From an uncultured Chloroflexia bacterium (lineage in GTDB: Bacteria; Chloroflexota; Limnocylindria; Limnocylindrales; CSP1-4): a stretch of DNA of 64,000 nt. Numbering within the stretch: position 1 is the stretch's first letter; each line of letters starts with the position of its first letter. This document shows positions 4,811 through 17,234 of this stretch, one piece after another. The notes below the pieces were generated by a model. That model did no database searches and had not been told where the DNA came from. It saw only the letters and a list, made by a program, of their open reading frames with translations. Both the position numbers and the translations under genes were made by a program. Location of the stretch: assembly GCA_963766735.1 (NCBI GenBank), contig CAVYBU010000003.1, positions 224,001 to 288,000 on the forward strand. The letters run 5' to 3'.

Positions 4811-6244
4811 TCAGCTCTTCAGGTGGGCGATGACGGCGCGCGCCGCATGGAGCCCGCTCATGCCGTGGACCCCACCACCCGGCGGCGTGGACGAGGAGCA
4901 GAGGTAGATGCCCGGGTCCGGGGTGGTGTACGGGTTCCAGCGGACAACCGGCCGGAACAGGAGCTGGCGCCAGTCGCCGATGCCGCCGTTGATGTCGCCG
5001 CCGACGTAGTTCGCGTCGTACGCCTCCATCGCCGCAGCGTCCTTCGCCGCGCGGGCGAGGACCAGGTCCCGGAATCCCGGCGCGAACCGCTCCACCTGCG
5101 ACTCGATCGCGGCGGTCATGTCCACCGTGGAACCGTTGGGGACGTGGCAGTACGCCCATGCGACGTGCTTGCCTTCGGGGGCGCGCGACGGGTCGGCGGT
5201 CGTGGGCTGGACGAGGATCACGAAGGGCTGTTCCGCGTGACGCCCCCGACCGACGGCCTCCTCTGAAGCCGCGACCTCTCGGTAGGTTCCGCCGAGGTGA
5301 ACGGTGGCGGCCCGCGCCGTGGCCGGATCGCGCCAGGGGATCGGGCCATCGAGTGCCCAGTCGATCTTGAACACGCCCGGTCCGTACCGGAAGCCTTCGA
5401 GCTGGCGCCGGTAACCAGCGGGCAGCCGATCCCCGGCGACGGCCAGCACCTGGCGAGGCGTGAGATCGAGGAGCACGGCGCGAGCCGGCGGCAGATCGGC
5501 CAGGGAGTCGACCCGGTGCCCGGCGACGATCTCCACGCCCAGCGATCGTGCCTCGGCCTCCAGGGCGTCGGCGATCGCCCCACTGCCACCCCGGGCCACC
5601 GGCCAGCCGACAGCGTGCGCCAGGAGCCCGAGCACGAGTCCGAAGGAGCCGCTCAGCGGCTGGGAGAGCCGGAGCATCGAGTGGGCGGCCATCCCGGCGA
5701 ACAGGGCACGAGCCCCCGGTTCGCGGAACGCCAGGCGGGCGAGGGAGGTGGCGGGCAGCAGCGCCGGGAGGCCGAACCGCGCCATGAGGATCGGGTGGCG
5801 CGGCGGACGCACGACCGGTCCGAGGATCGCCGGAACAAGCCGCTCCCACTCGCGGACGTAGGGGCCGAGCAGGCGACGCCAGGCATCCGCGTCCCGGCCC
5901 AGCGCCTCGTCGATCGAGGCCAGGTCACGTTCCAGCACGATGCTCCGGCCGGGCGCCAGGGCGTGGGCGACCGGTGCTTCGGGCTGCACCCACTCGAGCC
6001 CGTGCCGCGCGAGGTCGAGGGACCGGAAGAATGGTGACGCGACTCCCAGTGGGTGGACGGACGCGCATGGATCGTGGATGAAGCCGGGCAGCGTCAGCGC
6101 CGCGGAGCGCGACCCGCCGCCGACGGTCTCTGCCGCCTCGTAGACGCGGACGGACCGGCCGGCGCGGGCGAGCTCGATCGCGGCGGCGAGCCCGTTCGGC
6201 CCCGCGCCGACGACGATGGCGTCCAGGTCACTGGGGCGGTTCAT
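4811..6244 (-). CDS. NAD(P)/FAD-dependent oxidoreductase, phytoene desaturase family
   Basis: VVGAGPNGL Rossmann motif, TLPGFIHDPCASVHP, C-terminal CSSSTPPGGGVHGMSG. Confidence 0.9.
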   Translation of the reverse strand: MNRPSDLDAIVVGAGPNGLAAAIELARAGRSVRVYEAAETVGGGSRSAALTLPGFIHDPCASVHPLGVASPFFRSLDLARHGLEWVQPEAPVAHALAPGRSIVLERDLASIDEALGRDADAWRRLLGPYVREWERLVPAILGPVVRPPRHPILMARFGLPALLPATSLARLAFREPGARALFAGMAAHSMLRLSQPLSGSFGLVLGLLAHAVGWPVARGGSGAIADALEAEARSLGVEIVAGHRVDSLADLPPARAVLLDLTPRQVLAVAGDRLPAGYRRQLEGFRYGPGVFKIDWALDGPIPWRDPATARAATVHLGGTYREVAASEEAVGRGRHAEQPFVILVQPTTADPSRAPEGKHVAWAYCHVPNGSTVDMTAAIESQVERFAPGFRDLVLARAAKDAAAMEAYDANYVGGDINGGIGDWRQLLFRPVVRWNPYTTPDPGIYLCSSSTPPGGGVHGMSGLHAARAVIAHLKS

Positions 6245-6278: not shown

Positions 6279-7037
6279 TCAGCTTCCCGTTGCACGACCG
6301 CCCGCCGCGCGGCGCCGCACCCACCGAACCGGCGCCGTCACGGTGCCGATCGCCGTGGATACGACGATGCTGCCCCGGACGTTGCGCGCGTAGCGCCACT
6401 GGCGCCGCTTGTCCACGCAGACCTTGGCCGTCACGACGTTGGGGTCCGCGACACCCACGGAGCGGGCGAGGTTGTCGAGGGTCTGCTCCCAGAACCTGTC
6501 GTTCTGCCGGTTCGCGCCAAGCACGTAGCTCAGCTCGACGAACGGGTCGCTTGCCCGCTCGAGGGCCTGCACCTGGGCGACCGTGATGTCGCCGTCCCGG
6601 TGCGAGGAGAACGTGATCCAGGCCGAGAGCATGTGACCTTCAGGGGTCATGAAGGTGAACGATTCGGCGTCCGCGTAGATGACCATCACGCCCGTCGACA
6701 TCGTCAGTGGCGCGCCGGGCATCGCCTGGACCTCGAGCAGCGCGACCTCGCCGGGGCTGATGCCCGACAGCGGGGCGTAGAACTTGGCGCCCTTGGGCCA
6801 GAAGGTCGGGAAGTTGGCCTTCCAGTGGGCGACGAGCTCATGCGGCGTCAGCTCGCAGCCCTCGAGGCGGACGGAGAAGGTCTTCTGCCACATCTGGCCG
6901 AAGCCCTGGACGGGCCCGGTGACGCGCTTGCCGGTGACCCGGTCGCTGCCGGCGCCGCTCGCGGTCGTGCTCAACTTGTCGACGGGACGGGCCCACGACT
7001 CCTGGTCGCGGGGGGTGCGGGGCTCGGGTGTGGTCAT
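6279..7037 (-). CDS. Conserved hypothetical protein (possibly DUF1990/SRPBCC-like)
   Basis: Protein-like ORF with GGAGG RBS; motifs GPVQGFGQMWQKT and FTFMTPEGH. Confidence 0.65.
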   Translation of the reverse strand: MTTPEPRTPRDQESWARPVDKLSTTASGAGSDRVTGKRVTGPVQGFGQMWQKTFSVRLEGCELTPHELVAHWKANFPTFWPKGAKFYAPLSGISPGEVALLEVQAMPGAPLTMSTGVMVIYADAESFTFMTPEGHMLSAWITFSSHRDGDITVAQVQALERASDPFVELSYVLGANRQNDRFWEQTLDNLARSVGVADPNVVTAKVCVDKRRQWRYARNVRGSIVVSTAIGTVTAPVRWVRRRAAGGRATGS

Positions 7038-7126
7038 GGCATGCCTCCGAAGGCAACGGGGAACCAGGGACGGGTTCCGGCGGGGCGGGACGCGGATGAC
7101 GGTGGGCGGCGCTGCCGCCAGGGCTC

Positions 7127-7468
7127 TCAGGCGGATGCGGCAGCGAGCGCCGCGGTCTCGTCGTCGTGGATCGCGATCGCCTCGTCGAGGCGGGTGAGCT
7201 CAAGGATCTGCTTGTAGTGGTCGGACAACCCCACGGCGAGGAGCTTCTGGTTCGCGCGCTGGGTCCGGACGAGCAGGGTGACCAGGAGACCGATCCCACC
7301 CGAGTTCATGTAGTCAAGCTGGCTGAAGTCCAGGACGATCGATCGGGCGTCGCCGGCTTCGGCATAGGCGGCCATGATCGGCGGCTCGCTGCCCCCGGTG
7401 ATCTCGCCATGGATCCGCAGGATCGCGGTCGATCCATCACGGGTCACGTCAACGGTGGTGTCGGTCAT
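7127..7468 (-). CDS. STAS-domain anti-sigma factor antagonist
   Basis: LDFSQLDYMNSGGIGLL phospho-Ser motif, ILELTRLD; 113 aa. Confidence 0.92.
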   Translation of the reverse strand: MTDTTVDVTRDGSTAILRIHGEITGGSEPPIMAAYAEAGDARSIVLDFSQLDYMNSGGIGLLVTLLVRTQRANQKLLAVGLSDHYKQILELTRLDEAIAIHDDETAALAAASA

Positions 7469-7827
7469 CGGGCTGCCTCCTCGGGGACGGGCGTCGCCGG
7501 CTGGCCGTCGGCGATCGTGAGGTAGTCGGACAGGCGCGTGATCCGGAAGATCTCGCGGTAGTGGTCAGAGAGGCCTTCGGCGATCACCTCGCGATGGTCG
7601 CGACGCGCCTCGGCCAGGAGCCGGACGATCAGGGCGATGCCCGTCGAATTGATGTAGTCGACCTGCGTGAAGTCGAGGACGACACGGGTCGCGCCAGCCT
7701 CGGCAGCCTCGGCATAGGCTGCGGCGAGGGCATCGTCTGCGGCGATGTCCACGTCCCCCCGCATCGCCAGGCGGGCCTCGCCGGGGATCGTTGTGACGAC
7801 CTCCACGGCCAGTCGGTTGTCGTTCAT
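7465..7827 (-). CDS. STAS-domain anti-sigma factor antagonist
   Basis: LDFTQVDYINSTGIALI, IFRITRL; AAGGAG RBS. Confidence 0.92.
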   Translation of the reverse strand: MNDNRLAVEVVTTIPGEARLAMRGDVDIAADDALAAAYAEAAEAGATRVVLDFTQVDYINSTGIALIVRLLAEARRDHREVIAEGLSDHYREIFRITRLSDYLTIADGQPATPVPEEAAR

Positions 7828-7850
7828 GGCTGCTCCTTCGATCCTGCGGG

Positions 7851-9545
7851 TCAGCGCCCGTCGCGGGCGATGGTGAGGGTCACGGTCTGCAGGCCGTCCG
7901 CGGCGTGCACGTCCATCCCGTCCACCATGTGGCGGATCAGGAACAGGCCCCAGCCGCGCGGCTTCTGGCGGCCCTCGAGCTTGGCGTCGAGGTCCGGCAT
8001 CTCGGCCTCCGGGACCGGCCCGGACAGCGCCCGATCCGTGACGCGGATGTGGATGGCCTCGTCGTCGGCGTCAACGCGGACATCGACCGGGACCGCGGGA
8101 TCGCCCTGGGAGCCGTACTCGATCGCGTTCATCACGGCTTCCGCGACCGCCGTCTTGAGACGCTCCAGGCGCGCGGGTTCGAGGCCCAGCGGCGCCACTG
8201 CCTCGGCGACGCGCTGCATGGCCGCGCGCTCGTTCCCGATGGCGCCCTCGATGGTGAAGGCGATGAGCGGCTCGGCGTCGGCGATGCCTCCGGCGGCCGT
8301 CACGACCGGCTTCCGGTCGCGGGTCACAGGCACCTCGGGACGCTCCTCGGCCCATGCGTCCGCGGTTCCGTGCGAGCGGCGCAACGTGACGAGCGTGATG
8401 TCGTCCTCCTGCTCCATGCCGGGCCCGGTGAAGGCACGCAGCTCGTCGAGCAGTCGGTCCAGGAGAACGCTCCCGGCGTCGTCGGTGACCATCGCCTCGC
8501 GCAGGCGGGGGAAGCCGTACATCTCCCGGCCGGGTCCGTGCTGCTCCACCAGGCCGTCCGAATAGAGCAGCATGGCGTCGCCCTGGCCCACGAAGCCCTC
8601 GGTCTCCTCGTAGACGATGCCCGGCATCAGGCCGAGCGGCAGGCCGGTCGCCCGCAGCTCGATGACGCCGTCCGTCGTGCGCACGTAGGGCAGGTTGTGG
8701 CCGGCGTTCGCGAACACGAAGCGGCCGGTCTCGGGCTCCAGGACGCCGTAGAGGCAGGTGACGAACATCCGCGCCGGCATCTCGGGGGCGAGCAGCTCGT
8801 TCGCCCGGGCAAGGACCTTGCCGGGCTCGATGAGCCGCGGGGCCTCCGCCCGGAGGATCGAGTGGGTGCGGGCCATGACGAGGGCCGCCGGGACGCCCTT
8901 GTCGGTGACGTCGCCGACGACGACACCGATGCGGCCCTCGCCAAGGTCGATGAAATCGTAGAAGTCTCCGCCGACGACGCGTGCCGGTCCGTAGTACGCG
9001 GCGATCTGCCATTCGGGGAGGTTCGGGAGCTCGCGCGGGAGGAACTGCTGCTGGATCAGCTGGGCGACCTTGAGCTCCTGCTCGTACCGCTCGCGCTCGG
9101 CCGCTTCCGCGGCCTGCTCGCGGACGAGCTGCGCGACGCGGATCGCGGGCGCGGCCTGCGCCGCCAGGGTCGCGAGCAGCCGGCGGTCGTCAGTCGAGTA
9201 GTCCTGCTCGGAGAGGCGTGGCCCGAGGTTGAGCGTCCCGATGAGTTCGCCCTGGGTCACCAACGGCACGACGAGCGCGACGCCCGCTCCCCGCAGCTCC
9301 TCGAGAGCGGGCGAGGCGAGCTCCAGGCGGGTGAGGTCAACGGGTCCCGGTGCCGACTGGAGGTACGCGAACAGCGGGTCGGTCTCGGGGATGTCCACGG
9401 CGACGCCGGGCCGCTCAGCCGTCGGCACGGCGGGCGCGGGCATGACGACGGCCGCCGACTCGGGCTTGGGCCGGCCCATCAGGCGACGGAACGGGCGAGA
9501 GATCGCTGTCATGGGCGCCATCCTCAAGGTTGTGTGTTCGGACAT
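7851..9545 (-). CDS. Partial GAF + SpoIIE/PP2C phosphatase + HATPase_c (RsbW-like anti-sigma kinase) fusion
   Basis: VGGDFYD, GDVTDKG, NAGH, YSDGL, EDDITL (PP2C); EAVMNAIEYG, PRGWGLFLI (HATPase); N-terminal LVVPL..GELIGTLNLG. Confidence 0.92.
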   Translation of the reverse strand: MSEHTTLRMAPMTAISRPFRRLMGRPKPESAAVVMPAPAVPTAERPGVAVDIPETDPLFAYLQSAPGPVDLTRLELASPALEELRGAGVALVVPLVTQGELIGTLNLGPRLSEQDYSTDDRRLLATLAAQAAPAIRVAQLVREQAAEAAERERYEQELKVAQLIQQQFLPRELPNLPEWQIAAYYGPARVVGGDFYDFIDLGEGRIGVVVGDVTDKGVPAALVMARTHSILRAEAPRLIEPGKVLARANELLAPEMPARMFVTCLYGVLEPETGRFVFANAGHNLPYVRTTDGVIELRATGLPLGLMPGIVYEETEGFVGQGDAMLLYSDGLVEQHGPGREMYGFPRLREAMVTDDAGSVLLDRLLDELRAFTGPGMEQEDDITLVTLRRSHGTADAWAEERPEVPVTRDRKPVVTAAGGIADAEPLIAFTIEGAIGNERAAMQRVAEAVAPLGLEPARLERLKTAVAEAVMNAIEYGSQGDPAVPVDVRVDADDEAIHIRVTDRALSGPVPEAEMPDLDAKLEGRQKPRGWGLFLIRHMVDGMDVHAADGLQTVTLTIARDGR

Positions 9546-9547
9546 CG

Positions 9548-10738
9548 TTACGAAGGCTGGGCAGAGCTGTCACTGCTTGCGTTACGAAGCCATATGCCGG
9601 CGGCAGCCGGTTTGACCGCAGCGCTGGTCGTCGCGACGAGGGCGTCATGCACGGAATTGACGTCGATCTCGTTCCGAAGCCGCTCAGCGAAGGCGTCCGC
9701 CGTTCGCTGCCCGTCGTACCGCGCCCGGTCGAACCGGCGGTCCACGACGCGCTGGACCCGCCGCCGCAGCGGCTGGAACAGCGCGAACGCGACGAGGGTG
9801 GACGCCGCCACCGCGAGCGTGTTCTCGTTCGTGACCGGTGCGAGCACCGTCTGCAGCGCGACGACGAGGCCCGCGAACACCGCCACCAGGATCCCCGTCA
9901 CGATCGCCCAGCCGATCGTGCGGCTGACGATCCGGTCGATCTCATACAGGCGGTACCGGGTGATGGCGATCGCGATCGCGATCGGGATCAGTGGGTAGGC
10001 GATGACGGCCGGCCACCACATCCAGGTGCCCGTCGTGTCGACCAGCAGGATCACCGCGAAGGCGAAGACCACCGTGCCCAGGGTGACGGCGAGGGCCGCC
10101 AGGAGCCACTTGTACTGCTCGCGTTCCGCCCCTTCGGCTCGCCGGAACCGGACGATGAGGGTCCCGATGGCTGCGGCGAGGGCGATGAGCACCGCCACGA
10201 ACACGCCCGTCTGGATGACCGGCCATCCGGGCCAGTCGGGCGCGATGCCGAACGGCAGTCGGACGGCGACCGCGATCCCATCGGTGAAGTTGACGGTGGC
10301 ATCCGGCGCGAAGGCCAGGACGATGGCGAAGACGATCGGGACCGCGACGGCGAGCCGGCCGACGGTACCCAATCGGCCCGCCGGGAACCGCCCGGCTGGG
10401 AACAGGACGGCCAGCGCGACAAACACCCCGAACGCCAGGCCGCTGCCCCACGAGTTGGTCCACGCCATGAGCGTGATCCCCGCGTCGGCATGACCATCGA
10501 CGACCTGGGACGAGGGGCCCGGCACAACGGTGCCGAGCGTCTCGAAGGCCAGGGCGAACGCGACGAGCAGCCAGCCGACGACCTCTCGCGGCCGGCGCCA
10601 GGCCAGGAACAGGCCGACCGCGCAGTACGACCCGATGATCCAGGCGCCCGAGATGTCCTGCCCGGACCACACGGCGATGCCGACGACCAGCATCACCACG
10701 CCGGCATATGGCACGGCGCGCAGGTGCTCCAGCCTCAT
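9548..10738 (-). CDS. Multi-TM membrane sensor-like protein, paralog 1 (ends in a half GAF)
   Basis: FPAGR, REQYKWL, RYRLYEIDR, FQPLRRRVQ..VDRRFDR; ATG 10738 overlaps the stop of paralog 2 (ATGA). Confidence 0.85.
   Translation of the reverse strand: MRLEHLRAVPYAGVVMLVVGIAVWSGQDISGAWIIGSYCAVGLFLAWRRPREVVGWLLVAFALAFETLGTVVPGPSSQVVDGHADAGITLMAWTNSWGSGLAFGVFVALAVLFPAGRFPAGRLGTVGRLAVAVPIVFAIVLAFAPDATVNFTDGIAVAVRLPFGIAPDWPGWPVIQTGVFVAVLIALAAAIGTLIVRFRRAEGAEREQYKWLLAALAVTLGTVVFAFAVILLVDTTGTWMWWPAVIAYPLIPIAIAIAITRYRLYEIDRIVSRTIGWAIVTGILVAVFAGLVVALQTVLAPVTNENTLAVAASTLVAFALFQPLRRRVQRVVDRRFDRARYDGQRTADAFAERLRNEIDVNSVHDALVATTSAAVKPAAAGIWLRNASSDSSAQPS
9554..9586 (-). promoter_or_regulatory. Candidate activator-dependent internal promoter of the phosphatase gene
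   Basis: CGTAACG-N20-CAGCCT-N8-ATG(9545); lies inside the 3' end of paralog 1. Confidence 0.5.
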
Positions 10739-11925
10739 CCCCCCGCCTCCGTCCGCACCCAGACCGCGACCGAGCCCGGCCGGAGGGCCTCGTGCACGGT
10801 GACCGCGATGTCGGTCTCCACTCCGGCGAGGTCGACCCGGTCGCGCAACCGCTCGCCGAATGCGGTCACCACCCGCTCCCCGTCGTACCGGGCCCGGTCG
10901 AACCGGCGATCCACGGCCCGCTGGACCCGCCGGCGCAGCGGCTGGAACAGGGCGAACGCGACGAGCGTGGACGCCGCGACCGCGAGGGTGTCGTTGTCCG
11001 TCACGGGCGCAAGGATCGCCTGGAGGCCAACGATCATCGCCGCAAAGAGGCCCGCCAGCAGCGCGGTGACGATGAGCCAGCCCAGCGTCCGGCTGATGAC
11101 CCGGTCGATCTCGTACAGGCGGTAGCGGGTGATGGCGACGTAGATCGCGGCCGGGATCATCGGGTAGGCGAAGATCGCGGGGAGCCAGGCGAGGCCGCCG
11201 ATCCCCTCCCCGAACACGATGATCGAGCTGAGCCCGGCGATCACCGCGAAGACCATGAACGCGAGCGCGGCGACGAGCCATCGAAGCTGGAGCCGCTCGA
11301 CGCCGGTCGCACGGCGGTACCTGATGAGCATCGAGATCACGCCGATCATCAGCAGGACGACGACCGGCGCAATGAGCGAATCGAGCGGGATCACCGACCA
11401 GATCGCAAGGTCCGGCAGGATGGCGAACCGATTGGGGACCACCACCGTCTCATTGCCGGCTAGGTTGAAGCCGACGACTGGCGCAGCGGCGGCGACGATG
11501 GGGATCATGGCGCACACCCCCAGCATGGCGATCGCAGGTCGTCGCCAGGGTCCTCTCGGCAACCGGCCGGACGGGAACAGGAGCATCAGGGCCACGAATC
11601 CGCCGAAGGTCGCGTAGCCGCTCCACGAGGAGGCCCACGCCGCGAGGAACTGATCCAGGGGTGCGGTTCCGTCCTGCAACGCCGTCGCATCGAGTTGGAG
11701 CTCCGTCGTGGTGCCGATGAACCCGAACGCGATCGCGACGAGGAGCCAGCCAATGCTGTTGCCAGGTCGTCGGATGACCAGGACGGCCCCGATGGCGGCA
11801 TAGCTCGTGTAGAAGAACAGGGTGAACGGATCCAGGCGGGCGAGGAACAGCCCGAACACGAGCAGTGTCAGGAGCAGGATGCGGCCCACGACTCCGAGCG
11901 GGCGCGGCGCCGTGGTCGTCGTCAT
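10735..11925 (-). CDS. Multi-TM membrane sensor-like protein, paralog 2
   Basis: Same family motifs; ATG 11925 overlaps the stop of paralog 3 (ATGA). Confidence 0.85.
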   Translation of the reverse strand: MTTTTAPRPLGVVGRILLLTLLVFGLFLARLDPFTLFFYTSYAAIGAVLVIRRPGNSIGWLLVAIAFGFIGTTTELQLDATALQDGTAPLDQFLAAWASSWSGYATFGGFVALMLLFPSGRLPRGPWRRPAIAMLGVCAMIPIVAAAAPVVGFNLAGNETVVVPNRFAILPDLAIWSVIPLDSLIAPVVVLLMIGVISMLIRYRRATGVERLQLRWLVAALAFMVFAVIAGLSSIIVFGEGIGGLAWLPAIFAYPMIPAAIYVAITRYRLYEIDRVISRTLGWLIVTALLAGLFAAMIVGLQAILAPVTDNDTLAVAASTLVAFALFQPLRRRVQRAVDRRFDRARYDGERVVTAFGERLRDRVDLAGVETDIAVTVHEALRPGSVAVWVRTEAGG

Positions 11926-13124
11926 CGAGCCTTTCTGAGCCACACGGACGCGGCTGCCGGCGCCACGGCATCGTCGACGGTTTGCACGATCGCTGAGCGC
12001 AGCCGGTCCAGGTCCACCTGGTCCCGCAGCTCCCCTGCGAACGATGCCACGACGCGTTCGCCGTTGACCCGGGTCCGATTGAACCGCCGGTCGATCGGCG
12101 CCTGCACGCGACGCCGGAGCGGCTGGAACAGGCCCGCGACAACGAGCGTTGCAGCCGCGGTGACCAGGGTCGAGCTGCCGGCGACATCCGCGAGGACCGC
12201 CTGGAGCGCGAGGTTCGTCGCGACGAAGGCGATCGCGAGGAGTGCCGTGAGGAGCGCGTACGTGATCGTTCGCCCGACGATGCGGTCGATCTCGTACAGG
12301 CGGTAGCGAAGGACCGCGATCGCGATCGAGACGGGCACGAGGCCCAGCGCGATCGTGGTGACGATGAACGCGGCAACGCTCAGCGGATCGGGCAGCACCG
12401 TGGCCCCGAGAATACCCAGGAGAGCAAGCCCGGCCGTGGCGCCGAACCACTTCAGCTGCTGGCGCTCGATCGGCGTCCCCCGCCGATAGCGGATGAACGG
12501 CGCCGCGAGGATGACCGGGAGGCAGACGATGAGCACCAGGCTCCCGACCTCGGACATCGCCGCCGCCAGGTCCGTCAGGCCACCCAGGGCGGCGAAGCCG
12601 GGTGGCAGCGGGACTCCCGGCGCCACATCGACCGAGGTGGGCAGGATGATGGCGGTGACGATCTGGGAGAGCAACGCGGCCGCGATCAGCAGCGCGACGA
12701 TGCGCCAGCGAGAGGACGGCAGGTGGCCGTCCGGGAAGCACAGCGGCAGGCCGGCCAGCGCGAAGGCGAGCGCCGGAGTGAACAGGAGGCTGCCCCACCA
12801 CCCTGCGTACGGCAACGGCAGTGACCCGCCGTAGACCTCGGCGTTGAGAAACCCCCACATCTGGCCGATCAGCGCCACGCCGAACCAGACGCCCGTCCCC
12901 CATACGACCCAGCCGACGAGATGCCCCGGACGGCGGGTCGCGATCACGCTTCCGACGAGTGACCACGACATCACGACGAACGTGTAGACGGGTATCGCCC
13001 AGCCGTCCGACTCCTGTGGAGGGAGCACGGCGACGAGGACGCCCAGGGTGATGGGCACGCCGAGCCCCAGCAGCCACACGAAGCCGGCGACTGGGCGGGC
13101 GAGGCTTCGCTGTTGGACCATCAC
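11922..13124 (-). CDS. Multi-TM membrane sensor-like protein, paralog 3
   Basis: FPDGH, ERQQLKW, RYRLYEIDR, FQPLRRRVQ; GTGA overlap with paralog 4. Confidence 0.85.
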   Translation of the reverse strand: MMVQQRSLARPVAGFVWLLGLGVPITLGVLVAVLPPQESDGWAIPVYTFVVMSWSLVGSVIATRRPGHLVGWVVWGTGVWFGVALIGQMWGFLNAEVYGGSLPLPYAGWWGSLLFTPALAFALAGLPLCFPDGHLPSSRWRIVALLIAAALLSQIVTAIILPTSVDVAPGVPLPPGFAALGGLTDLAAAMSEVGSLVLIVCLPVILAAPFIRYRRGTPIERQQLKWFGATAGLALLGILGATVLPDPLSVAAFIVTTIALGLVPVSIAIAVLRYRLYEIDRIVGRTITYALLTALLAIAFVATNLALQAVLADVAGSSTLVTAAATLVVAGLFQPLRRRVQAPIDRRFNRTRVNGERVVASFAGELRDQVDLDRLRSAIVQTVDDAVAPAAASVWLRKAR

Positions 13125-14326
13125 GGTTGCTCGGCCCCTCCCACCGCGATCGGACGCTCAGACCGGAGCCAGATCGTGGCACCCGCTGGCCGAACCGCCT
13201 CCACGACCACCTCCACGACCGCGGTACGAAGACGTCCGAGGTCGACCTCATCCCGAGCCTGACGCGCGAACACGCCAACCAGCTGCTCGGCATTGTGGTG
13301 CGCCCGGTTGAAGCGGCGGTCGATGGGCGCCTGAACCCGGCGCCGGATCGGCTGGAACAGCGTTGCGACGATCAGCGTGGAGACTGCGACCGCAATGGGT
13401 GGCAGCTCTCCCGCGCCGGCGACCAGTGCCTGCAGCAGGAGGTTCGTGCCGACGAAGACCGCGGCCAGGAGCGCCGTCACGATCGCGTACGACAGCGTCC
13501 GGCCGATGATCCGGTCGATGTCGTACAGGCGGTACCGCAGGATCGCGATGCCGATGGCGATCGGCAGCAGGGCGAGGGACAGTTGCCAGGCGCTCCACAG
13601 CCACGCCGGCCCGATGAACAGGCCCGGGAAGAGCACGACCGGCAAGGCGCCTGCGGCAGCAACCCACCGGATCTGGGCGCGGACGACGGGCCCGGCCCGC
13701 CGATAGCGGCGCGCAAGCACAACCGCGGTCACGGCCAGCCCGGCAACGTACAGGAGCAGGGCTGCGTTGGCGATCGACTCCGCGGTCCCGCGGCCAAGCG
13801 CGCTCATGCCGAGCGGGTTGCTCGTCCGTTCGATCCAGCCGGCCTGCACCTGGCCCGGTGCGAAGGTGGCAATTGCCGTGCAGGTGAGCGCAACGATGAA
13901 CATGCCGTTGGCGATCGCGGACAGTCGGTCCCGCTCGAGCCCGGCCGGGAACCGGACGAGGAGGAGGCCCGCGGACATCAGGACCGCGCCCCAGAGCTGC
14001 GACGAGACGACTGCGGCGGCGGCGCCGACCGGCGGGATCGGGCCCGGCGCCCCGTCGAGGGCGACGGCCAGGATCTTGAGCCCGGTTGTGGTGATCGCGA
14101 TGATCCCGATGAGGAGCGCCATCCTCCCGACGGGCTCCCGGGGGCGACGGGTGACGAGGATCGCGCCGACGGTGGTGAACCCGAACCCGAACCCGAACAC
14201 GACGACGACCTCCTCCCACGTGGTTGCCGCACGGGGATCGGTCAGCGCCGCCCACGACGCGACGATGGTCACGAGCAGCGCGAGCAGCCAGGTGACGGAG
14301 ACGAGCCGGACGCGGGTCGAGGTCAT
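13121..14326 (-). CDS. Multi-TM membrane sensor-like protein, paralog 4
   Basis: RFPAG, RAQIRW, RYRLYDIDR, FQPIRRRVQ. Confidence 0.85.
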   Translation of the reverse strand: MTSTRVRLVSVTWLLALLVTIVASWAALTDPRAATTWEEVVVVFGFGFGFTTVGAILVTRRPREPVGRMALLIGIIAITTTGLKILAVALDGAPGPIPPVGAAAAVVSSQLWGAVLMSAGLLLVRFPAGLERDRLSAIANGMFIVALTCTAIATFAPGQVQAGWIERTSNPLGMSALGRGTAESIANAALLLYVAGLAVTAVVLARRYRRAGPVVRAQIRWVAAAGALPVVLFPGLFIGPAWLWSAWQLSLALLPIAIGIAILRYRLYDIDRIIGRTLSYAIVTALLAAVFVGTNLLLQALVAGAGELPPIAVAVSTLIVATLFQPIRRRVQAPIDRRFNRAHHNAEQLVGVFARQARDEVDLGRLRTAVVEVVVEAVRPAGATIWLRSERPIAVGGAEQP

Positions 14327-14334
14327 GGCACCGG

Positions 14335-14367
14335 AAGTTGCAGGGACGTCGTTCGGGAAACGTTACG
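14335..14367 (-). promoter_or_regulatory. Candidate SARP-binding heptamer repeats / promoter of the receptor array
   Basis: CGTAACG-tttc-CCGAACG (11-bp period); CGTAACG-N20-CAACTT-N8-ATG(14326). Confidence 0.6.
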
Positions 14368-14399
14368 GGATTGCGGCCCGACGCTGTACCGTACGCTCG

Positions 14400-17234
14400 A
14401 TGCCGCTCGATATTCGCGTTCTCGGTCCCCTCGAGGTCCAGGTGGACGGCGAGCCGATCCGCGTCGACACCCGCAAGGCCGTCGCGATCCTCGCGCTCCT
14501 GGCGGTGGAGCGGCGGCCGTACGCGCGTGATGAGCTCGCGGCGATCTTCTGGCCGGAGTCCGACGATGGATCCGCCCGGGGCGCGCTGCGCCGGACGCTG
14601 TCGGTGCTCAGGGCGGCGCTCGGCGATCGCTGGCTGCACGTCGACCGCTCGACGGTCTCCCTCGCGGCCCACGGCGCAGGGGTCTGGCTGGACCTCGCTG
14701 CGCTCGAAGCGGGCGCCGCCGGTGGCGACCAGGGTGCGCTCGCGGAGGCTGCGGCCCTGGCCCGAGGCCCCTTCCTCGCCGGGTTCTCGCTCCGCGACAG
14801 CCCGGACTTCGACGACTGGCGTGCCACCCGTGCCGTCACCGTCGAGCGGCGCGTCGTCGAGGTGCTGGAGGGCCTCGTCACGGCGGCGGAGGCTGGTGGC
14901 GACCCAATGGCCGCGATCGCGGCCGCGGCGCGGCTCGTGGAGCTGGATCCGCTCGACGAGCCCGCACGCCAGCGGCTGATGGCGGCGCTTGCCCGCGGCG
15001 GCGACCGGGCCGGAGCGATCCGCGAGTACCGCACCACCGTGGCCATGCTGGAGCGGGAGCTGGGCGTGGTGCCATTGGCGACGACCACGGAGCTGTACGA
15101 GGCGATCCGGGATGGGCGGCTCGCGCCGGTCGTGCACGTGCCACCGGCGCATGTGATGAGCGGTGCACCGGCGGCAACCGTCGTCGAGCCGAGGACCAGG
15201 CTGCCGATGCTGGGCCGGCGGCTGGAGTTGGAGTCGCTCCTCGATGCGTACCGTCGATCGTCGGCGGACGGGCGCGTCGCCAGCGTCACCGGCGAGGCTG
15301 GGATCGGGAAGTCCCGCCTCGTTGAGGCGCTGCTCGCACGGGCGGCGGCCGATGGCGCCACGGTGCTCCTGGCCCGCGCCTTCCCGGCCGAGGGGTCCAT
15401 CGCCTATGCGCCGATCGTGGAGCTGCTCCGGGCGGGGTTCGCGGTGCCCGGAGCCGCCCAGCGCCTCGCAGAGCTCGCGCCAGCCACCCTGGCGGAGGTC
15501 GAGCGTCTCGTGCCGCTGCCCGACGGCGTGGCGACGGACAGCGCGGCACCGGGCGCGGCCGAGTCGCCCGCTGCGCGCGCGAGGCTGCTCGAGGCGATCG
15601 CGGCGGCGCTCGCGGCGATCGGCCATGGCGCCACGCCGGGCATCGTTGCCGTGGACGATCTGCAGTGGGCGGATGACGCATCGCGGGAGGCGCTCCTCTA
15701 CATCGCCCGGAGGCTGACCGGTCGGCCGATGCTCCTCCTCCTCACATGGCGCCCCGGGGACCTGGAGGAGGGAACCCAGCTGTTCGCGGAGGCCATCCAC
15801 GGGCTCCCGGGCGCGACGTCGGTGCGGCTGGAGCGGCTGGACGACGTGGTGGTCGGGGCGCTTGTCGATGCGGCTGCCGCGGCCGGTCTGCCGGCCTGGG
15901 ACGCGGCGGCACTCGCCTCGGAGTCCGAGGGGCTGCCGCTGTACGTGGTCGAGGCCCTGATGGCCGGTCCCGGCGCAGCCGGCCAGGCGCCGCCGCGTGG
16001 CGTCCGCGCGCTGCTGCGAGAGCGCCTCGCGAGCGTCTCGGAGACGGCGAGCCAGGTGCTCGCGACGGCCGCGGTGATCGGTCGCTCATTCGATTTCCCG
16101 ACGGTCCGGGTGGCCAGCGGCCGCTCTGACGACGAGACCGTCACGGCCCTCGAGGAGCTCGTCCACCGGGGGATCGTCCGCGAGCTTGCGAGCGGGCGGG
16201 AGACTGCCTTCGACTTCGGGCACGCCCGGCTCCGGGACGCGGCGTACGAGGAGATCGGGCTGGCGCGCCGGCGGCTTCTTCACCGGCGGATCGCGGAGGT
16301 GCTGCGGGCCGACCCGGCCGGGCGCCACGACCCGGGACGGCTGGCGCAGATCGCTGGCCACGAACAGGCCGCCGGACGGGACGCCGCCGCCGCCGAGGCC
16401 TACCGCGAGGCGGGGCTCGGGTCGCGGCGGATCTACGCCCATCGCGAGGCACTCGAGCTTCTCGAGACGGCCCTGGCCCTCGGGCACCCGGACGTCGTGG
16501 GACTCCAGGTCGCGATCGGCGAGATCCGCACGGCCCAGGGGGACTACGCGGCGGCGATCGCCTCGCTCGAGGCCGCGGCGGCGATCGGCGACGAGGCCGC
16601 CCTGTCGGGCGTCGAGCTGCGCCTGGGGCAGGTCCACGCCCGGCGCGGTGATGTGGCCACGGCCGCGAGCCATCTCGACGCGGCGCTGGCCGGGGCAGAC
16701 GAGCGACTCCGGCCAGGGGTGCTGGTCGAGCGCGGCGCCGTGGCGATGCGAGCCGGCGACCTGGACCTGGCGACCTCGCTTGCGGACCAGGCACTGGCCG
16801 CCGTGGCGGGCACCACCGATGACAGGACGACCGGGGCCGCCCGCCGGCTGCTGGGCCTGGTCGCCCTGCGGCGTGGCGATCTTGATGCGGCGCGCGCCTC
16901 GCTCCGGACGGCCGTCGACGCGGCTGGGCCCGGGCTGCACGGCGACCCGGCGGCCGCGATCGCCGCGCGGAACGGCCTGGCACTCGTCGAGGCGGCGGCA
17001 GGTGACCACGCCGCAGCGATCGTCCTTCTCCAAGAGGCGTTGGCCGAATGCCGGCGGACCGGCGAGACGCATCTCGAGGCTGCGGTCGAGAACAACCTCG
17101 CCGACCAGCTCCGCGCCGCCGGTCGCAGCGACGAGGCCATGGCCCATCTCAAGCGTGCCGTGGCGCTGTTCGCGGAGGTCGGCGGGCGCCCGGGCGAGCT
17201 GGAGCCGGAGATCTGGAAGCTGGTCTCCTGGTAG
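14400..17234 (+). CDS. SARP/BTAD transcriptional activator with AAA ATPase and TPR repeats
   Basis: IRVLGPLEV wHTH start, GPFLAGF..FDDW, LDPLDE (BTAD), GEAGIGKS Walker A, VDDLQWAD Walker B, TPR-like C-terminus. Confidence 0.92.
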   Translation: MPLDIRVLGPLEVQVDGEPIRVDTRKAVAILALLAVERRPYARDELAAIFWPESDDGSARGALRRTLSVLRAALGDRWLHVDRSTVSLAAHGAGVWLDLAALEAGAAGGDQGALAEAAALARGPFLAGFSLRDSPDFDDWRATRAVTVERRVVEVLEGLVTAAEAGGDPMAAIAAAARLVELDPLDEPARQRLMAALARGGDRAGAIREYRTTVAMLERELGVVPLATTTELYEAIRDGRLAPVVHVPPAHVMSGAPAATVVEPRTRLPMLGRRLELESLLDAYRRSSADGRVASVTGEAGIGKSRLVEALLARAAADGATVLLARAFPAEGSIAYAPIVELLRAGFAVPGAAQRLAELAPATLAEVERLVPLPDGVATDSAAPGAAESPAARARLLEAIAAALAAIGHGATPGIVAVDDLQWADDASREALLYIARRLTGRPMLLLLTWRPGDLEEGTQLFAEAIHGLPGATSVRLERLDDVVVGALVDAAAAAGLPAWDAAALASESEGLPLYVVEALMAGPGAAGQAPPRGVRALLRERLASVSETASQVLATAAVIGRSFDFPTVRVASGRSDDETVTALEELVHRGIVRELASGRETAFDFGHARLRDAAYEEIGLARRRLLHRRIAEVLRADPAGRHDPGRLAQIAGHEQAAGRDAAAAEAYREAGLGSRRIYAHREALELLETALALGHPDVVGLQVAIGEIRTAQGDYAAAIASLEAAAAIGDEAALSGVELRLGQVHARRGDVATAASHLDAALAGADERLRPGVLVERGAVAMRAGDLDLATSLADQALAAVAGTTDDRTTGAARRLLGLVALRRGDLDAARASLRTAVDAAGPGLHGDPAAAIAARNGLALVEAAAGDHAAAIVLLQEALAECRRTGETHLEAAVENNLADQLRAAGRSDEAMAHLKRAVALFAEVGGRPGELEPEIWKLVSW

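What the first reader, a model, noticed from the sequence alone, without database searches (positions are those of the whole stretch)
7851..14326. Candidate 'split-GAF' modular signalling system: four interchangeable membrane receptors and one shared phosphatase/kinase
Seen: four translationally coupled ~400-aa multi-TM paralogs all end at the same point, after '…F…(L/A)R..(V/I)D(L/V)..........V..A(L/V).P....(I/V)W(L/V)R' (e.g. FAGELRDQVDLDRLRSAIVQTVDDAVAPAAASVWLR). The next gene starts 2 nt after the last stop. After a short Pro/Ala-rich leader it reads 'VDIPETDPLFAYL…LVVPLVTQGELIGTLNLGPRLSEQDYSTDDRRLLATLAAQAAPA' before its PP2C domain. Known: GAF domains begin with two helices and strand beta1 and end with 'hhhPh…hhGhh…helix', and TM-GAF-PP2C/His-kinase fusions are common. 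Inference: each receptor carries the N-terminal part of a GAF and the enzyme carries the C-terminal part. Any of four sensors could then complete the fold in trans, multiplexing inputs onto one output. A frameshift is unlikely because all four paralogs terminate equivalently and the enzyme appears to have its own promoter.
Basis: partly seen in the sequence, partly recalled or inferred. Interest (0 to 1): 0.9.

Follow-up and report, generated by a model that had tools for sequence, protein, structure and literature searches.

The report
Naturally split GAF sensor-phosphatase system
Four membrane receptor genes each end with the first helix and strand of a GAF sensor domain, and the next gene, a phosphatase/kinase, starts with the rest of it. 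The two proteins probably assemble one sensor domain between them, an arrangement that seems undescribed yet is conserved in two bacterial phyla.

Summary

**Operon.** On the minus strand lie four coupled ~400-aa, ~10-TM paralogs, then a half-GAF/PP2C/RsbW-like kinase protein, then two STAS genes.

**The split.** Fused relatives carry receptor part and enzyme part collinearly in one protein, for example P0248 (933 aa) and P0251 (1008 aa). In them Pfam's GAF model spans the exact point where the window's genes are split. The receptor tail corresponds to the N-terminal helices and strand β1. The enzyme alone is modelled with only a β-hairpin and helices.

**Complex.** A model of the R4 tail with the enzyme N-terminus scored ipSAE 0.62, against 0.01 for the best of 3 controls. 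β1 pairs with the enzyme's last GAF strand. Halves of a known fold can pass such a test from memory.

**Conservation.** The cassette is present in 12 same-genus genomes. In 74 of 80 further loci from Chloroflexota and Actinomycetota (including Kribbella), 1-7 receptor genes lie upstream. None of the 80 is fused.

**Not supported or untested.** No promoter-like site supports an own promoter for the enzyme. Its likely start is M12, not the ATG 2 nt after the stop. Interchangeability of the four receptors is untested. No description was found in print.

The parts
13121..14326 (-). R1, receptor paralog, 401 aa, ~10 TM helices, cytoplasmic tail
   Evidence: No Pfam family.
11922..13124 (-). R2, receptor paralog, 400 aa. 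Its start overlaps R1's stop (GTGA/TGATG).
10735..11925 (-). R3, receptor paralog, 396 aa. ATGA overlap with R2.
9548..10738 (-). R4, receptor paralog, 396 aa. ATGA overlap with R3; its stop TAA lies 2 nt before the first ATG of the enzyme frame.
9551..9778 (-). R4 cytoplasmic tail, 76 aa: long helix α0, helix α1 and strand β1 (AGIWL) of the GAF fold. The equivalent tails are R1 13124-13357, R2 11925-12128 and R3 10738-10947.
   Evidence: Tail alignment A1. Mapping to GAF. Interface residues 19-66.
7851..9545 (-). P, the half-GAF / SpoIIE-type PP2C phosphatase / HATPase_c_2 (RsbW-like kinase) protein. It is 564 aa from the first ATG; the probable start is M12 at 9512 (553 aa).
9471..9512 (-). 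N-terminal peptide of P, MTAISRPFRRLMGR. M12, R17, P18, R20 and R21 are invariant in 64 family members. Function unexplained; possibly a docking element.
   Evidence: Similar short basic/aromatic leaders occur in distant split relatives. It is not among the confident contacts.
9126..9410 (-). C-terminal part of the GAF in P (residues 46-140): strand VAVDI, two helices, the β-hairpin 91-97/100-107 and the start of the C-terminal helix.
   Evidence: Pfam GAF profile positions 52-57 to the end. AF2 elements. Interface residues 45-52, 88-142.
9042..9194 (-). Long linker helix (residues 118-168) from the GAF to the PP2C domain.
   Evidence: Comparable coiled-coil linkers of PPM phosphatases are described in PMC12143880 (passages read).
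8376..8939 (-). SpoIIE/PP2C phosphatase domain (residues 203-390).
   Evidence: PF07228, 165.1 bits against a cut-off of 25. The GGDFYD, GDVTDKG, SDG and EDD motifs are present.
7872..8228 (-). HATPase_c_2, an RsbW/SpoIIAB-like serine kinase domain (residues 440-558).
   Evidence: PF13581, 79.5 bits against a cut-off of 27.4. Weak NCBIfam matches to SpoIIAB and RsbW.
7465..7827 (-). STAS protein 1, 120 aa, with the motif DYINSTG. A GAAGGAG lies upstream of its ATG.
7127..7468 (-). STAS protein 2, 113 aa, with the motif DYMNSGG.

Best explanation
This is a partner-switching signalling cassette whose GAF sensor domain is naturally split between two polypeptides.

**Receptor.** Each receptor (R1-R4) has about 10 TM helices. 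Its N-terminal two thirds are variable and presumably form the sensing part. Its C-terminal module is conserved and ends in the cytoplasm with helix α0, helix α1 and strand β1 of a GAF fold.

**Enzyme.** P supplies the remaining strands and helices of the GAF. These continue through a long linker helix into a PP2C phosphatase and an RsbW-like kinase.

**Proposed mechanism (inferred).**
- The receptor tail docks onto P. β1 inserts next to P's last GAF strand, and α0/α1 pack on P's C-terminal GAF helix. This rebuilds the same chain seen in fused relatives: 10 TM, GAF, PP2C.
- Conformational changes in the membrane part would then pass through α0 and the composite GAF into the linker helix. That would shift the balance between phosphatase and kinase activity towards the two STAS proteins.
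- Because all paralogs keep the same tail and the genome holds only one such enzyme, several receptors probably share or compete for it.

**Shown here:** the anatomy, collinearity with fused relatives, the GAF identity of both halves, conservation of the split, and a model-level interface.

**Inferred:** actual binding, the signal path, multiplexing, the STAS substrates and the downstream target.
For: 1. **Collinear fused relatives.**
   - P0248 (933 aa) aligns to R4 residues 179-388 at its positions 320-539 (33% identity).
   - It aligns to P residues 48-391 at its positions 570-917 (65% identity).
   - Pfam GAF covers its residues 510-657, which is profile 1-133, and so spans the join.
   - P0251 (1008 aa) adds the HATPase_c_2 domain.
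   - P0200 has Pfam GAF at 417-561, profile 1-132, starting at the tail equivalent.
   - In a profile of 87 fused ~700-aa kinases, R1-R4 end at node 403-409 of 707. P's confident part follows at about node 420-480.
2. **Both halves are GAF.**
   - The AF2 model of the fused P0200 stretch has pLDDT 76.8 and pTM 0.70. Foldseek against the PDB gives 380 hits at E<=1e-3, and the listed top hits are GAF-containing structures.
   - In a profile search of the PDB, positions 40-138 cover nearly all of two solved GAF chains: 2vzw residues 3-147 of 149, and 2w3d residues 7-150 of 153. The tail stretch aligns to their first residues.
3. **P alone is incomplete.** Residues 1-45 have pLDDT below 50. After that come only two helices, one hairpin and the linker helix.
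4. **Complex model.** For P 1-165 with the R4 tail, ipSAE was 0.65, 0.62 and 0.62 in three runs, and 0.01 for the best of 3 controls.
   - The tool's calibration: 58 of 80 solved complexes reached the mark, against 2 of 110 mismatched pairs. These counts hold only roughly with my own alignments.
   - The three runs agree in at least 92% of contacts. Partner pLDDT was at least 64.
   - Tail residues 60-64 pair with P residues 102-108. Tail residues 47-51 touch P residues 124 and 127.
5. **Conservation of the split.**
   - All 12 same-genus loci examined carry 3-6 receptors before P and two STAS genes.
   - 74 of 80 species loci from Chloroflexota and Actinomycetota have 1-7 R-type ORFs upstream. 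None of the 80 is fused.
   - 76 of 80 have a full P with 1-3 STAS genes downstream. The other 4 are cut by contig ends.
6. **Co-occurrence.** P was found in 13 of 24 same-genus genomes, and R in 14 of 24, including all 13 that hold P. Neither was found in the 16 genomes of the sister family.
7. **The two halves are the best-conserved parts.**
   - The C-terminal third of 219 R-type proteins, tail included, has the highest pair identity (0.34-0.66 per 20-column bin). Most of the N-terminal part scores 0.12-0.35; one conserved motif bin scores 0.45.
   - P residues 93-141 are largely invariant in 64 proteins.
8. **One enzyme, four receptors.** The genome holds only one P-type half-GAF and four receptors.
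Against: - No experiment exists. The complex score is a model's own confidence, and two halves of a well-known fold can pass by likeness to solved single-chain GAF structures, as the tool itself warns.
- Only R4's tail was modelled. R1-R3 are inferred by homology.
- The elements of P's half-GAF are modelled with fairly high confidence without a partner: pLDDT 79-88 for residues 50-110. It might therefore be stable alone.
- 6 of 80 P loci show no receptor upstream within the flank. Two of those six have short upstream sequence.
- Relatives carry orphan receptor genes with no half-GAF gene and no conserved neighbour nearby, at all 12 loci examined.
- The strand that follows β1 in fused P0200 has no clear counterpart in the split pair.
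- The invariant N-terminal peptide of P is not among the confident contacts of the model.
- No sigma factor or other output target was identified in the cassette.
Confidence: 0.65

Rival explanations
1. Regulated rather than constitutive docking. The receptor tail and P form the composite GAF only in one signalling state. The enzyme would cycle on and off the membrane, as RsbT is released to activate RsbU, and the receptors would act as competing sinks or activators.
For: - P has a disordered ~45-residue leader and an invariant N-terminal peptide that could serve as a second, weaker tether.
- Several receptors face one enzyme.
- Orphan receptors lie elsewhere in related genomes.
Against: - Nothing here separates transient from permanent binding.
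- Fused relatives work with a covalent link, which suggests permanent association is sufficient.
Confidence: 0.2
2. The proteins function independently. The receptors would be stand-alone membrane proteins whose tail is a leftover or binds something else. P's truncated GAF would be a self-sufficient dimerisation stub, and the genes would share only an operon.
For: - P's half-GAF elements are modelled with pLDDT 79-88 without a partner.
- 12 orphan receptor loci have no half-GAF gene nearby.
- 6 of 80 P loci have no receptor in the upstream flank.
- The complex pass may come from memory of GAF folds.
Against: - The tail and the half-GAF are among the most conserved parts of their proteins.
- Both halves are contiguous in close fused relatives, up to 65% identical to P.
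- The adjacency holds across two phyla.
- A two-stranded stub lacks most of a GAF sheet.
Confidence: 0.13
3. The split is an artefact. A sequencing or assembly indel, a pseudogene, or a programmed frameshift or read-through would in reality produce one fused R4-P protein.
For: - A few database entries read through the junction: P0094, P0007 and P0133. Their sequences go out of register with the tail consensus just before the join, which looks like a frameshift.
Against: - The stop after the tail is present in 53 of 53 tails from 13 genomes and in 74 of 80 further loci. Spacing to P varies.
- Reading R4's frame past its TAA meets a TGA after 7 codons, as read from the junction sequence.
- P has its own invariant start region, and a GAGGA lies before M12.
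Confidence: 0.02

Closest known systems
Fused 10TM-GAF-PP2C proteins (P0248, P0250, P0200; P0251 with added HATPase_c_2) and ~700-aa 10TM-GAF-HisKA_3 histidine kinases. All are uncharacterised database proteins.
   Same: They share the membrane module (RYRL[YW][DE]ID motif), the same tail, the same GAF C-part and the same PP2C, in the same order. P is 65% identical to the C-terminal half of P0248.
   Different: They are one polypeptide, with a variable linker of about 10-60 aa at the place where the window's genes are cut. The window has four receptor genes and one enzyme gene.
Bacillus subtilis stressosome/RsbT-RsbU pathway. General knowledge, plus passages read in PMC12143880.
   Same: Several paralogous sensor proteins feed one PP2C phosphatase. 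That phosphatase acts on a STAS protein in a partner-switching module. Regulation passes through an N-terminal domain and a helical linker.
   Different: The sensors there are cytoplasmic RsbR paralogs in a large complex, and activation goes through the RsbT kinase binding RsbU's own complete N-terminal domain. No sensor domain is shared between two chains, and the sensors are not membrane receptors.
Mycobacterium tuberculosis Rv1364c and Streptomyces coelicolor OsaC. Both are named in PMC12143880 (passage read); their domain details are partly recalled.
   Same: A sensor domain (PAS and/or GAF) is joined to a PP2C phosphatase. [quoted passage not shown]
   Different: Their sensor domains are complete and covalently attached, and they are not fed by separate membrane receptors.
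PrsK, the XrtA/PEP-CTERM system histidine kinase (NCBIfam TIGR02916).
   Same: It is a distant sequence match in the same order. R4 residues 185-398 match profile positions 128-349, and P residues 89-146 match positions 411-467.
   Different: The scores are far below the family cut-off: 24.6 and 19.9 bits against 300. The output is a histidine kinase. The window's proteins are not members.
Folds completed in trans, such as donor-strand complementation in chaperone-usher pili and split PH domains. Recalled; not tested here.
   Same: One chain donates a β-strand that completes another chain's sheet.
   Different: Those are different folds and processes. No GAF example was found in the searches.

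Membership tests
GAF domain (Pfam PF01590/PF13185/PF13492) | The profile is matched over its whole length within one chain. | tested here: not met
   P matches only profile positions 57-133 of 133 (PF01590, 32.4 bits) and 52-127 of 129 (PF13492). The receptors alone give no Pfam hit. Fused relatives match positions 1-133: P0248 at 510-657, P0250 at 371-491, P0200 at 417-561.
GAF domain (Pfam PF01590/PF13185/PF13492) | GAF three-dimensional fold: a central antiparallel sheet flanked by N- and C-terminal helices. | tested here: met
   This holds for the fused relative. The AF2 model was searched with Foldseek against the PDB, giving 380 hits at E<=1e-3; the listed top hits are GAF-containing structures such as 5w10, 3lfv and phytochromes. 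For the split pair it holds only as a two-chain model. P alone shows two strands.
GAF domain (Pfam PF01590/PF13185/PF13492) | The receptor tail corresponds to GAF helix α1 and strand β1. | tested here: met
   Pfam profile position 1 falls on the tail equivalent in P0200. In the PDB profile search the tail stretch (positions 40-65) aligns to the first residues of the chains 2vzw and 2w3d.
SpoIIE/PP2C (PPM) phosphatase, PF07228 | Profile match above the cut-off, and metal-binding Asp motifs. | tested here: met
   165.1 bits against a cut-off of 25, at residues 203-390. The GGDFYD, GDVTDKG, SDG and EDD motifs are present, and their Asp and Gly residues are invariant or nearly so in 64 proteins. 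Which Asp residues bind metal is recalled, not tested.
RsbW/SpoIIAB-type anti-sigma-factor serine kinase (HATPase_c_2, PF13581) | Profile match above the cut-off, with N-box and G-box. | tested here: met
   79.5 bits against a cut-off of 27.4. E469, N473 and G531-W532-G533 are invariant. NCBIfam equivalogs for SpoIIAB and RsbW fall well below their cut-offs (36.5 against 135; 26.6 against 145), so P is not an ortholog of either.
Partner-switching module (PP2C + kinase + STAS antagonist) | STAS protein(s) with a phosphorylatable Ser/Thr encoded beside the enzymes. | tested here: met
   Two STAS genes: PF01740 at 45.7 and 50.9 bits, with the motifs DYINSTG and DYMNSGG. They lie downstream of P in 76 of 80 loci. 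That the Ser is the phosphosite is inferred from recalled SpoIIAA/RsbV knowledge.
Partner-switching module (PP2C + kinase + STAS antagonist) | A sigma factor or other target controlled by the switch. | tested here: inconclusive
   The ORFs scanned on either side of the cassette gave no sigma-factor family. The ORF at 6279-7037 has no Pfam family, and a BTAD/AAA_16/TPR regulator lies divergently upstream. The rest of the genome was not searched for a target.
PrsK (TIGR02916) | Score above the equivalog cut-off of 300 bits. | tested here: not met
   R4 scores 24.6 bits and P scores 19.9 bits.
Stressosome (RsbR/RsbS/RsbT) | RsbR/RsbS STAS scaffold proteins and an RsbT kinase that activates the phosphatase. 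| not tested
   No search for RsbR/S/T was made. The resemblance is functional only (many sensors, one phosphatase).

The most novel reading that the evidence does not exclude
A plug-in receptor system. Arrays of 1-7 or more fast-diverging membrane receptors each carry a standard 'GAF plug' (α0-α1-β1). They compete for, or take turns on, one 'GAF socket' on a bifunctional phosphatase/kinase. Many inputs would then converge on one partner-switching output through fold complementation. Evolution appears to have switched between the fused and split forms several times, which would make this a general route to modular sensor exchange in Actinomycetota and Chloroflexota.
Probability: 0.4. Interest if true: 0.85.

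Novelty: new variant of a known kind. Interest (0 to 1): 0.78.

Why it matters
Sensor domains such as GAF are normally treated as indivisible units wired covalently to their outputs. Here the cut runs through the domain itself. A conserved natural system of that kind would show that a signalling fold can be assembled from a membrane receptor and a soluble enzyme.

- **A new wiring principle.** Many receptors could be connected to one output this way. It would stand beside chemoreceptor arrays and the stressosome.
- **Unnamed proteins explained.** It would account for families of ~400-aa 'hypothetical' membrane proteins in Actinomycetota and Chloroflexota that carry no Pfam family.
- **Use in design.** It offers a natural template for split-domain biosensors.
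- **Testable now.** The cassette occurs in cultured Kribbella strains (loci L098 and L105).

Tried and rejected
- **Frameshift or assembly artefact.** Rejected, because the split is conserved. The read-through database entries P0094, P0007 and P0133 go out of register before the join.
- **The 990-aa open frame around P in one relative.** This is only an open stop-to-stop frame in GC-rich DNA. The receptor there ends in another frame.
- **Own promoter for the enzyme.** No sigma-70-like site lies in 6800-14700, and the one terminator-like site is within chance expectation. The scan does not cover other promoter types.
- **Tat signal in P's N-terminus.** I considered this because of the FRR motif followed by an Ala/Val/Pro stretch. 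I rejected it by inspection. Distant family members lack both the twin arginine and a hydrophobic stretch. An ATP-dependent kinase with cytoplasmic STAS partners would also not be exported.
- **β2 equivalent in the split pair.** P0200's β2 has no clear counterpart in the split pair. Other fused relatives have only about 10 aa at that place (P0250), so it is a variable insertion.
- **Alignments A3 and A4.** MAFFT misplaced the enzyme N-termini, so I did not use them. A5 was checked and used.
- **Orphan receptor loci.** No half-GAF gene and no conserved neighbour was found at any of the 12 loci.
- **Tree of fused and split forms.** FastTree, 110 rows. From the 150 representatives I dropped those that were neither clearly fused nor split, those with under 200 aa extracted, and 'split' rows whose match began more than 130 residues from their N-terminus. 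Only 18 of 107 inner branches are well supported. Some 'split' rows may be 5'-cut gene calls. The finding of at least 4 changes is therefore tentative.
- **Covariation between tail and enzyme.** Not attempted, because the enzyme side of the interface is nearly invariant.
- **Tools.** Supplements of papers were not consulted.
- **Literature.** Three searches found no paper on a split GAF in signalling. The hits for 'split GAF' were psychiatric papers. The search was for background on the lineage only, and I saw only its listing.

Full report
**What is there.** The window is GC-rich, 67-77% over 5-18 kb. Names on close database relatives point to Limnocylindrales-like Chloroflexota. On the minus strand lies a tight operon:
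- R1 13121-14326, R2 11922-13124, R3 10735-11925, R4 9548-10738
- the enzyme P, 7851-9545
- two STAS genes, 7465-7827 and 7127-7468

The receptor junctions overlap (GTGA/TGATG, ATGA, ATGA). R4's TAA is followed after 2 nt by an ATG. The four receptors are 37-39% identical to R2 (E down to 1e-53) and are the only copies in the 3.6-Mb genome.

A hydropathy scan suggests about 10 TM helices. Lys/Arg-rich loops alternate with poor ones, and the tail is basic, hence cytoplasmic (the topology is inferred from the positive-inside rule). The receptors have no Pfam family. Their nearest Atlas clusters are ~400-aa 'hypothetical proteins'.

P carries three Pfam matches:
- SpoIIE/PP2C at residues 203-390
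- HATPase_c_2 at residues 440-558
- a GAF match at residues 42-135, limited to profile positions ~52-57 to the end

**Start of the enzyme.** M12 and the peptide MTAxxRPFRR are invariant in 64 family members. A GAGGA lies 8-9 nt before that ATG, and the database version of this very protein starts there (553 aa). No promoter-like site was found anywhere in 6800-14700, so the 'own promoter' is unsupported.

**The two halves belong to one domain.** A search for longer relatives of R4 found 165 proteins. Many are ~700-aa proteins with the same membrane module followed by GAF, HisKA_3 and HATPase_c. P0200 carries GAF and SpoIIE, and P0170 carries a cyclase domain.
- In a profile built from 87 such kinases, R1-R4 run to node 403-409 of 707 and stop. 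P's confident alignment follows at about node 420-480.
- In P0200, Pfam's GAF model matches residues 417-561, which is profile 1-132. Position 1 falls on 'DLDTLAQELL…VSLWTR', the exact equivalent of the receptor tails.
- P0248 (933 aa) is the closest fused form. R4 179-388 aligns to its 320-539 (33% identity) and ends at '…ALWLRSQD'. P 48-391 aligns to its 570-917 at 65% identity. Pfam GAF covers 510-657, profile 1-133.
- P0251 (1008 aa) has the full set: membrane part, GAF, SpoIIE and HATPase_c_2.
- The stretch between β1 and the next conserved strand varies from about 10 to 60 residues among fused forms. The cut therefore sits in a variable loop.

**Fold.** The AF2 model of the fused P0200 stretch has pLDDT 76.8 and pTM 0.70. 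Its elements are a long helix (2-36), a helix (40-55), β1 (59-65), β2 (77-86), a strand (100-103), two helices, a β-hairpin (140-146 and 149-156) and a long C-terminal helix.
- Foldseek against the PDB returned 380 hits at E<=1e-3. The listed top hits are GAF-containing structures, including Lcd1 (5w10), PDE5A (3lfv) and phytochromes, at probability 1.00.
- In a sequence-profile search of the PDB, profile positions 40-138 align to nearly all of two solved GAF chains: 2vzw residues 3-147 of 149, and DevS 2w3d residues 7-150 of 153. The tail part aligns to their first residues.
- P alone (AF2, 64-row alignment, pLDDT 77.8) has residues 1-45 below pLDDT 50. Then come helices 57-64 and 79-86, strands 91-97 and 100-107, and a helix 118-168 leading into the PP2C domain. 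Two strands are not a GAF sheet.

**Complex model.** I used the one available job on P 1-165 with the 76-aa R4 tail, each supplied with its own alignment.
- ipSAE was 0.65, 0.62 and 0.62 in three runs. The best of 3 controls scored 0.01.
- The tool's calibration: 58 of 80 solved complexes reached the mark, against 2 of 110 mismatched pairs. These counts are only rough with my own alignments.
- The runs agree in at least 92% of contacts. Partner pLDDT was at least 64.
- Tail residues 60-64 (AGIWL) pair with P 102-108 (IGTLNLG). Tail residues 47-51 touch P 124 and 127. α0 also touches P, and P 45-52 touches the tail.
- β1 lying next to the last strand is what I recall of the canonical GAF strand order. 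That is recall, not a test.
- The caveat is important. Two halves of a fold with many solved single-chain structures can pass from memory, so this shows compatibility, not binding.

**Conservation.** P was found in 13 of 24 other genomes of the same genus and in 0 of 16 genomes of the sister family. R was found in 14 of 24 and 0 of 16, and those 14 include all 13 genomes that hold P.
- All 12 loci I cut out show 3-6 receptor genes, then P (81-91% identical), then two STAS genes. The receptors are 35-64% identical to the window's.
- All 53 tails from 13 genomes stop shortly after W[LVTI][RKS], by my reading of the listing about 1-28 aa.
- In the 50%-identity representative library, the fused GAF stretch found 11,602 proteins at E<=1e-3. 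Of the best 150:
  - 75 have the whole GAF.
  - 66 have only the C-part, and 60 of those begin it within 75 residues of their own N-terminus.
  - 4 have only the N-part, ending 2-30 residues after it.
  - 5 are unclear.
- A scan of species genomes found 425 relatives. The best 80 loci come from Limnocylindrales and other Chloroflexota, and from Actinomycetota. The latter include Kribbella sp. VKM Ac-2569, Kribbella sp. C-35, Nocardioides, Solirubrobacteraceae and Thermoleophilaceae.
  - 74 of 80 have 1-7 R-type ORFs upstream on the same strand. In 66 of 80 the nearest ends within 900 nt of the P match. None of the 80 is fused.
  - 76 of 80 have a full P followed by STAS genes: 70 with two, 4 with three, 2 with one. 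The other 4 are cut by contig ends.
  - These 80 were chosen by likeness to the split enzyme, so they do not measure how common fused forms are.
- Across 219 R-type proteins the C-terminal third, tail included, is the best conserved (pair identity 0.34-0.66 per 20-column bin). Most of the N-terminal two thirds score 0.12-0.35, apart from one conserved motif bin at 0.45.
- A quick tree of 66 fused and 44 split rows needs 9 changes of state, against a mean of about 35 for shuffled labels. Well-supported branches force at least 4. This is tentative, but it suggests repeated fission or fusion.

**How it most likely works.** The fused relatives give the template: membrane module, α0, GAF, linker helix, output. 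In the split system the same chain is probably restored without a covalent bond. The receptor donates α0-α1-β1, and P provides the rest. The composite GAF would then drive the linker helix. Passages of PMC12143880 describe dimeric coiled-coil linkers as a general control route from N-terminal sensor domains, GAF included, to PPM phosphatases.

P unites a phosphatase and an RsbW-like kinase. The two STAS proteins carry the usual Ser/Thr motif. The output is therefore probably the phosphorylation state of the STAS proteins. Their target is unknown, because no sigma-factor family turned up among the neighbouring ORFs scanned.

The genome holds four receptors and one P-type half-GAF, so sharing or competition is the simplest reading. 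Only R4 was modelled.

**Against, and open.**
- Binding is not shown.
- P's partial domain is modelled confidently on its own.
- 6 of 80 loci lack an upstream receptor within the flank.
- Orphan receptors exist without any half-GAF neighbour, at all 12 loci examined.
- The invariant N-terminal peptide of P is unexplained. Distant split relatives have different but similarly short basic/aromatic leaders. It may be a second docking element.

**Known or new.** The parts are known kinds: GAF, PP2C, RsbW-like kinase and STAS partner switching. What I did not find described is the split through the sensor domain, combined with arrays of receptor genes. Three literature searches gave nothing relevant. 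I rate it a new variant of a known kind, well supported in silico and directly testable in cultured Kribbella.

Noticed in passing
window 9471-9512 (-), P residues 12-25: The N-terminal peptide MTAISRPFRRLMGR has M12, R17, P18, R20 and R21 invariant in 64 proteins. It is followed by a disordered Pro/Ala-rich stretch of ~30 aa. Distant split relatives have other short basic/aromatic leaders. It is not among the confident contacts of the complex model, and its role is unknown.
   Followed up: partly
window ~14400-17234 (+): A large regulator with BTAD, AAA_16 and TPR domains (AfsR/SARP-like architecture) is encoded divergently, directly upstream of R1. The start coordinate is approximate.
   Followed up: partly
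window 4811-6244 (-) and 6279-7037 (-): Downstream of the STAS genes lie a 252-aa ORF with no Pfam family and a flavin amine oxidase-like gene. It is unclear whether either belongs to the cassette.
   Followed up: no
L107-L118 (relatives' genomes): Single 'orphan' receptor genes with the same tail lie far from any P gene in several same-genus genomes. They have no half-GAF gene and no conserved neighbour nearby. The window's own genome has none.
   Followed up: yes
L025 (G018): In this relative the receptor array and the start of P appear broken into several frames, with stops inside the matches. This is either decay of the cassette or assembly errors in that genome.
   Followed up: no
P0071, P0254, P0170 (database proteins): Architectural variants of the family. 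P0071 is a 671-aa P with a STAS domain listed in the same protein. P0254 is a fused form with a PAS domain between GAF and PP2C. P0170 has the same membrane module and tail on an adenylate/guanylate cyclase.
   Followed up: partly
L029, L030, L027 and other loci: Some loci carry further R-type genes downstream of the P/STAS block as well as upstream. Arrays reach the 8-kb flank limit (7 copies), so true array sizes may be larger.
   Followed up: no
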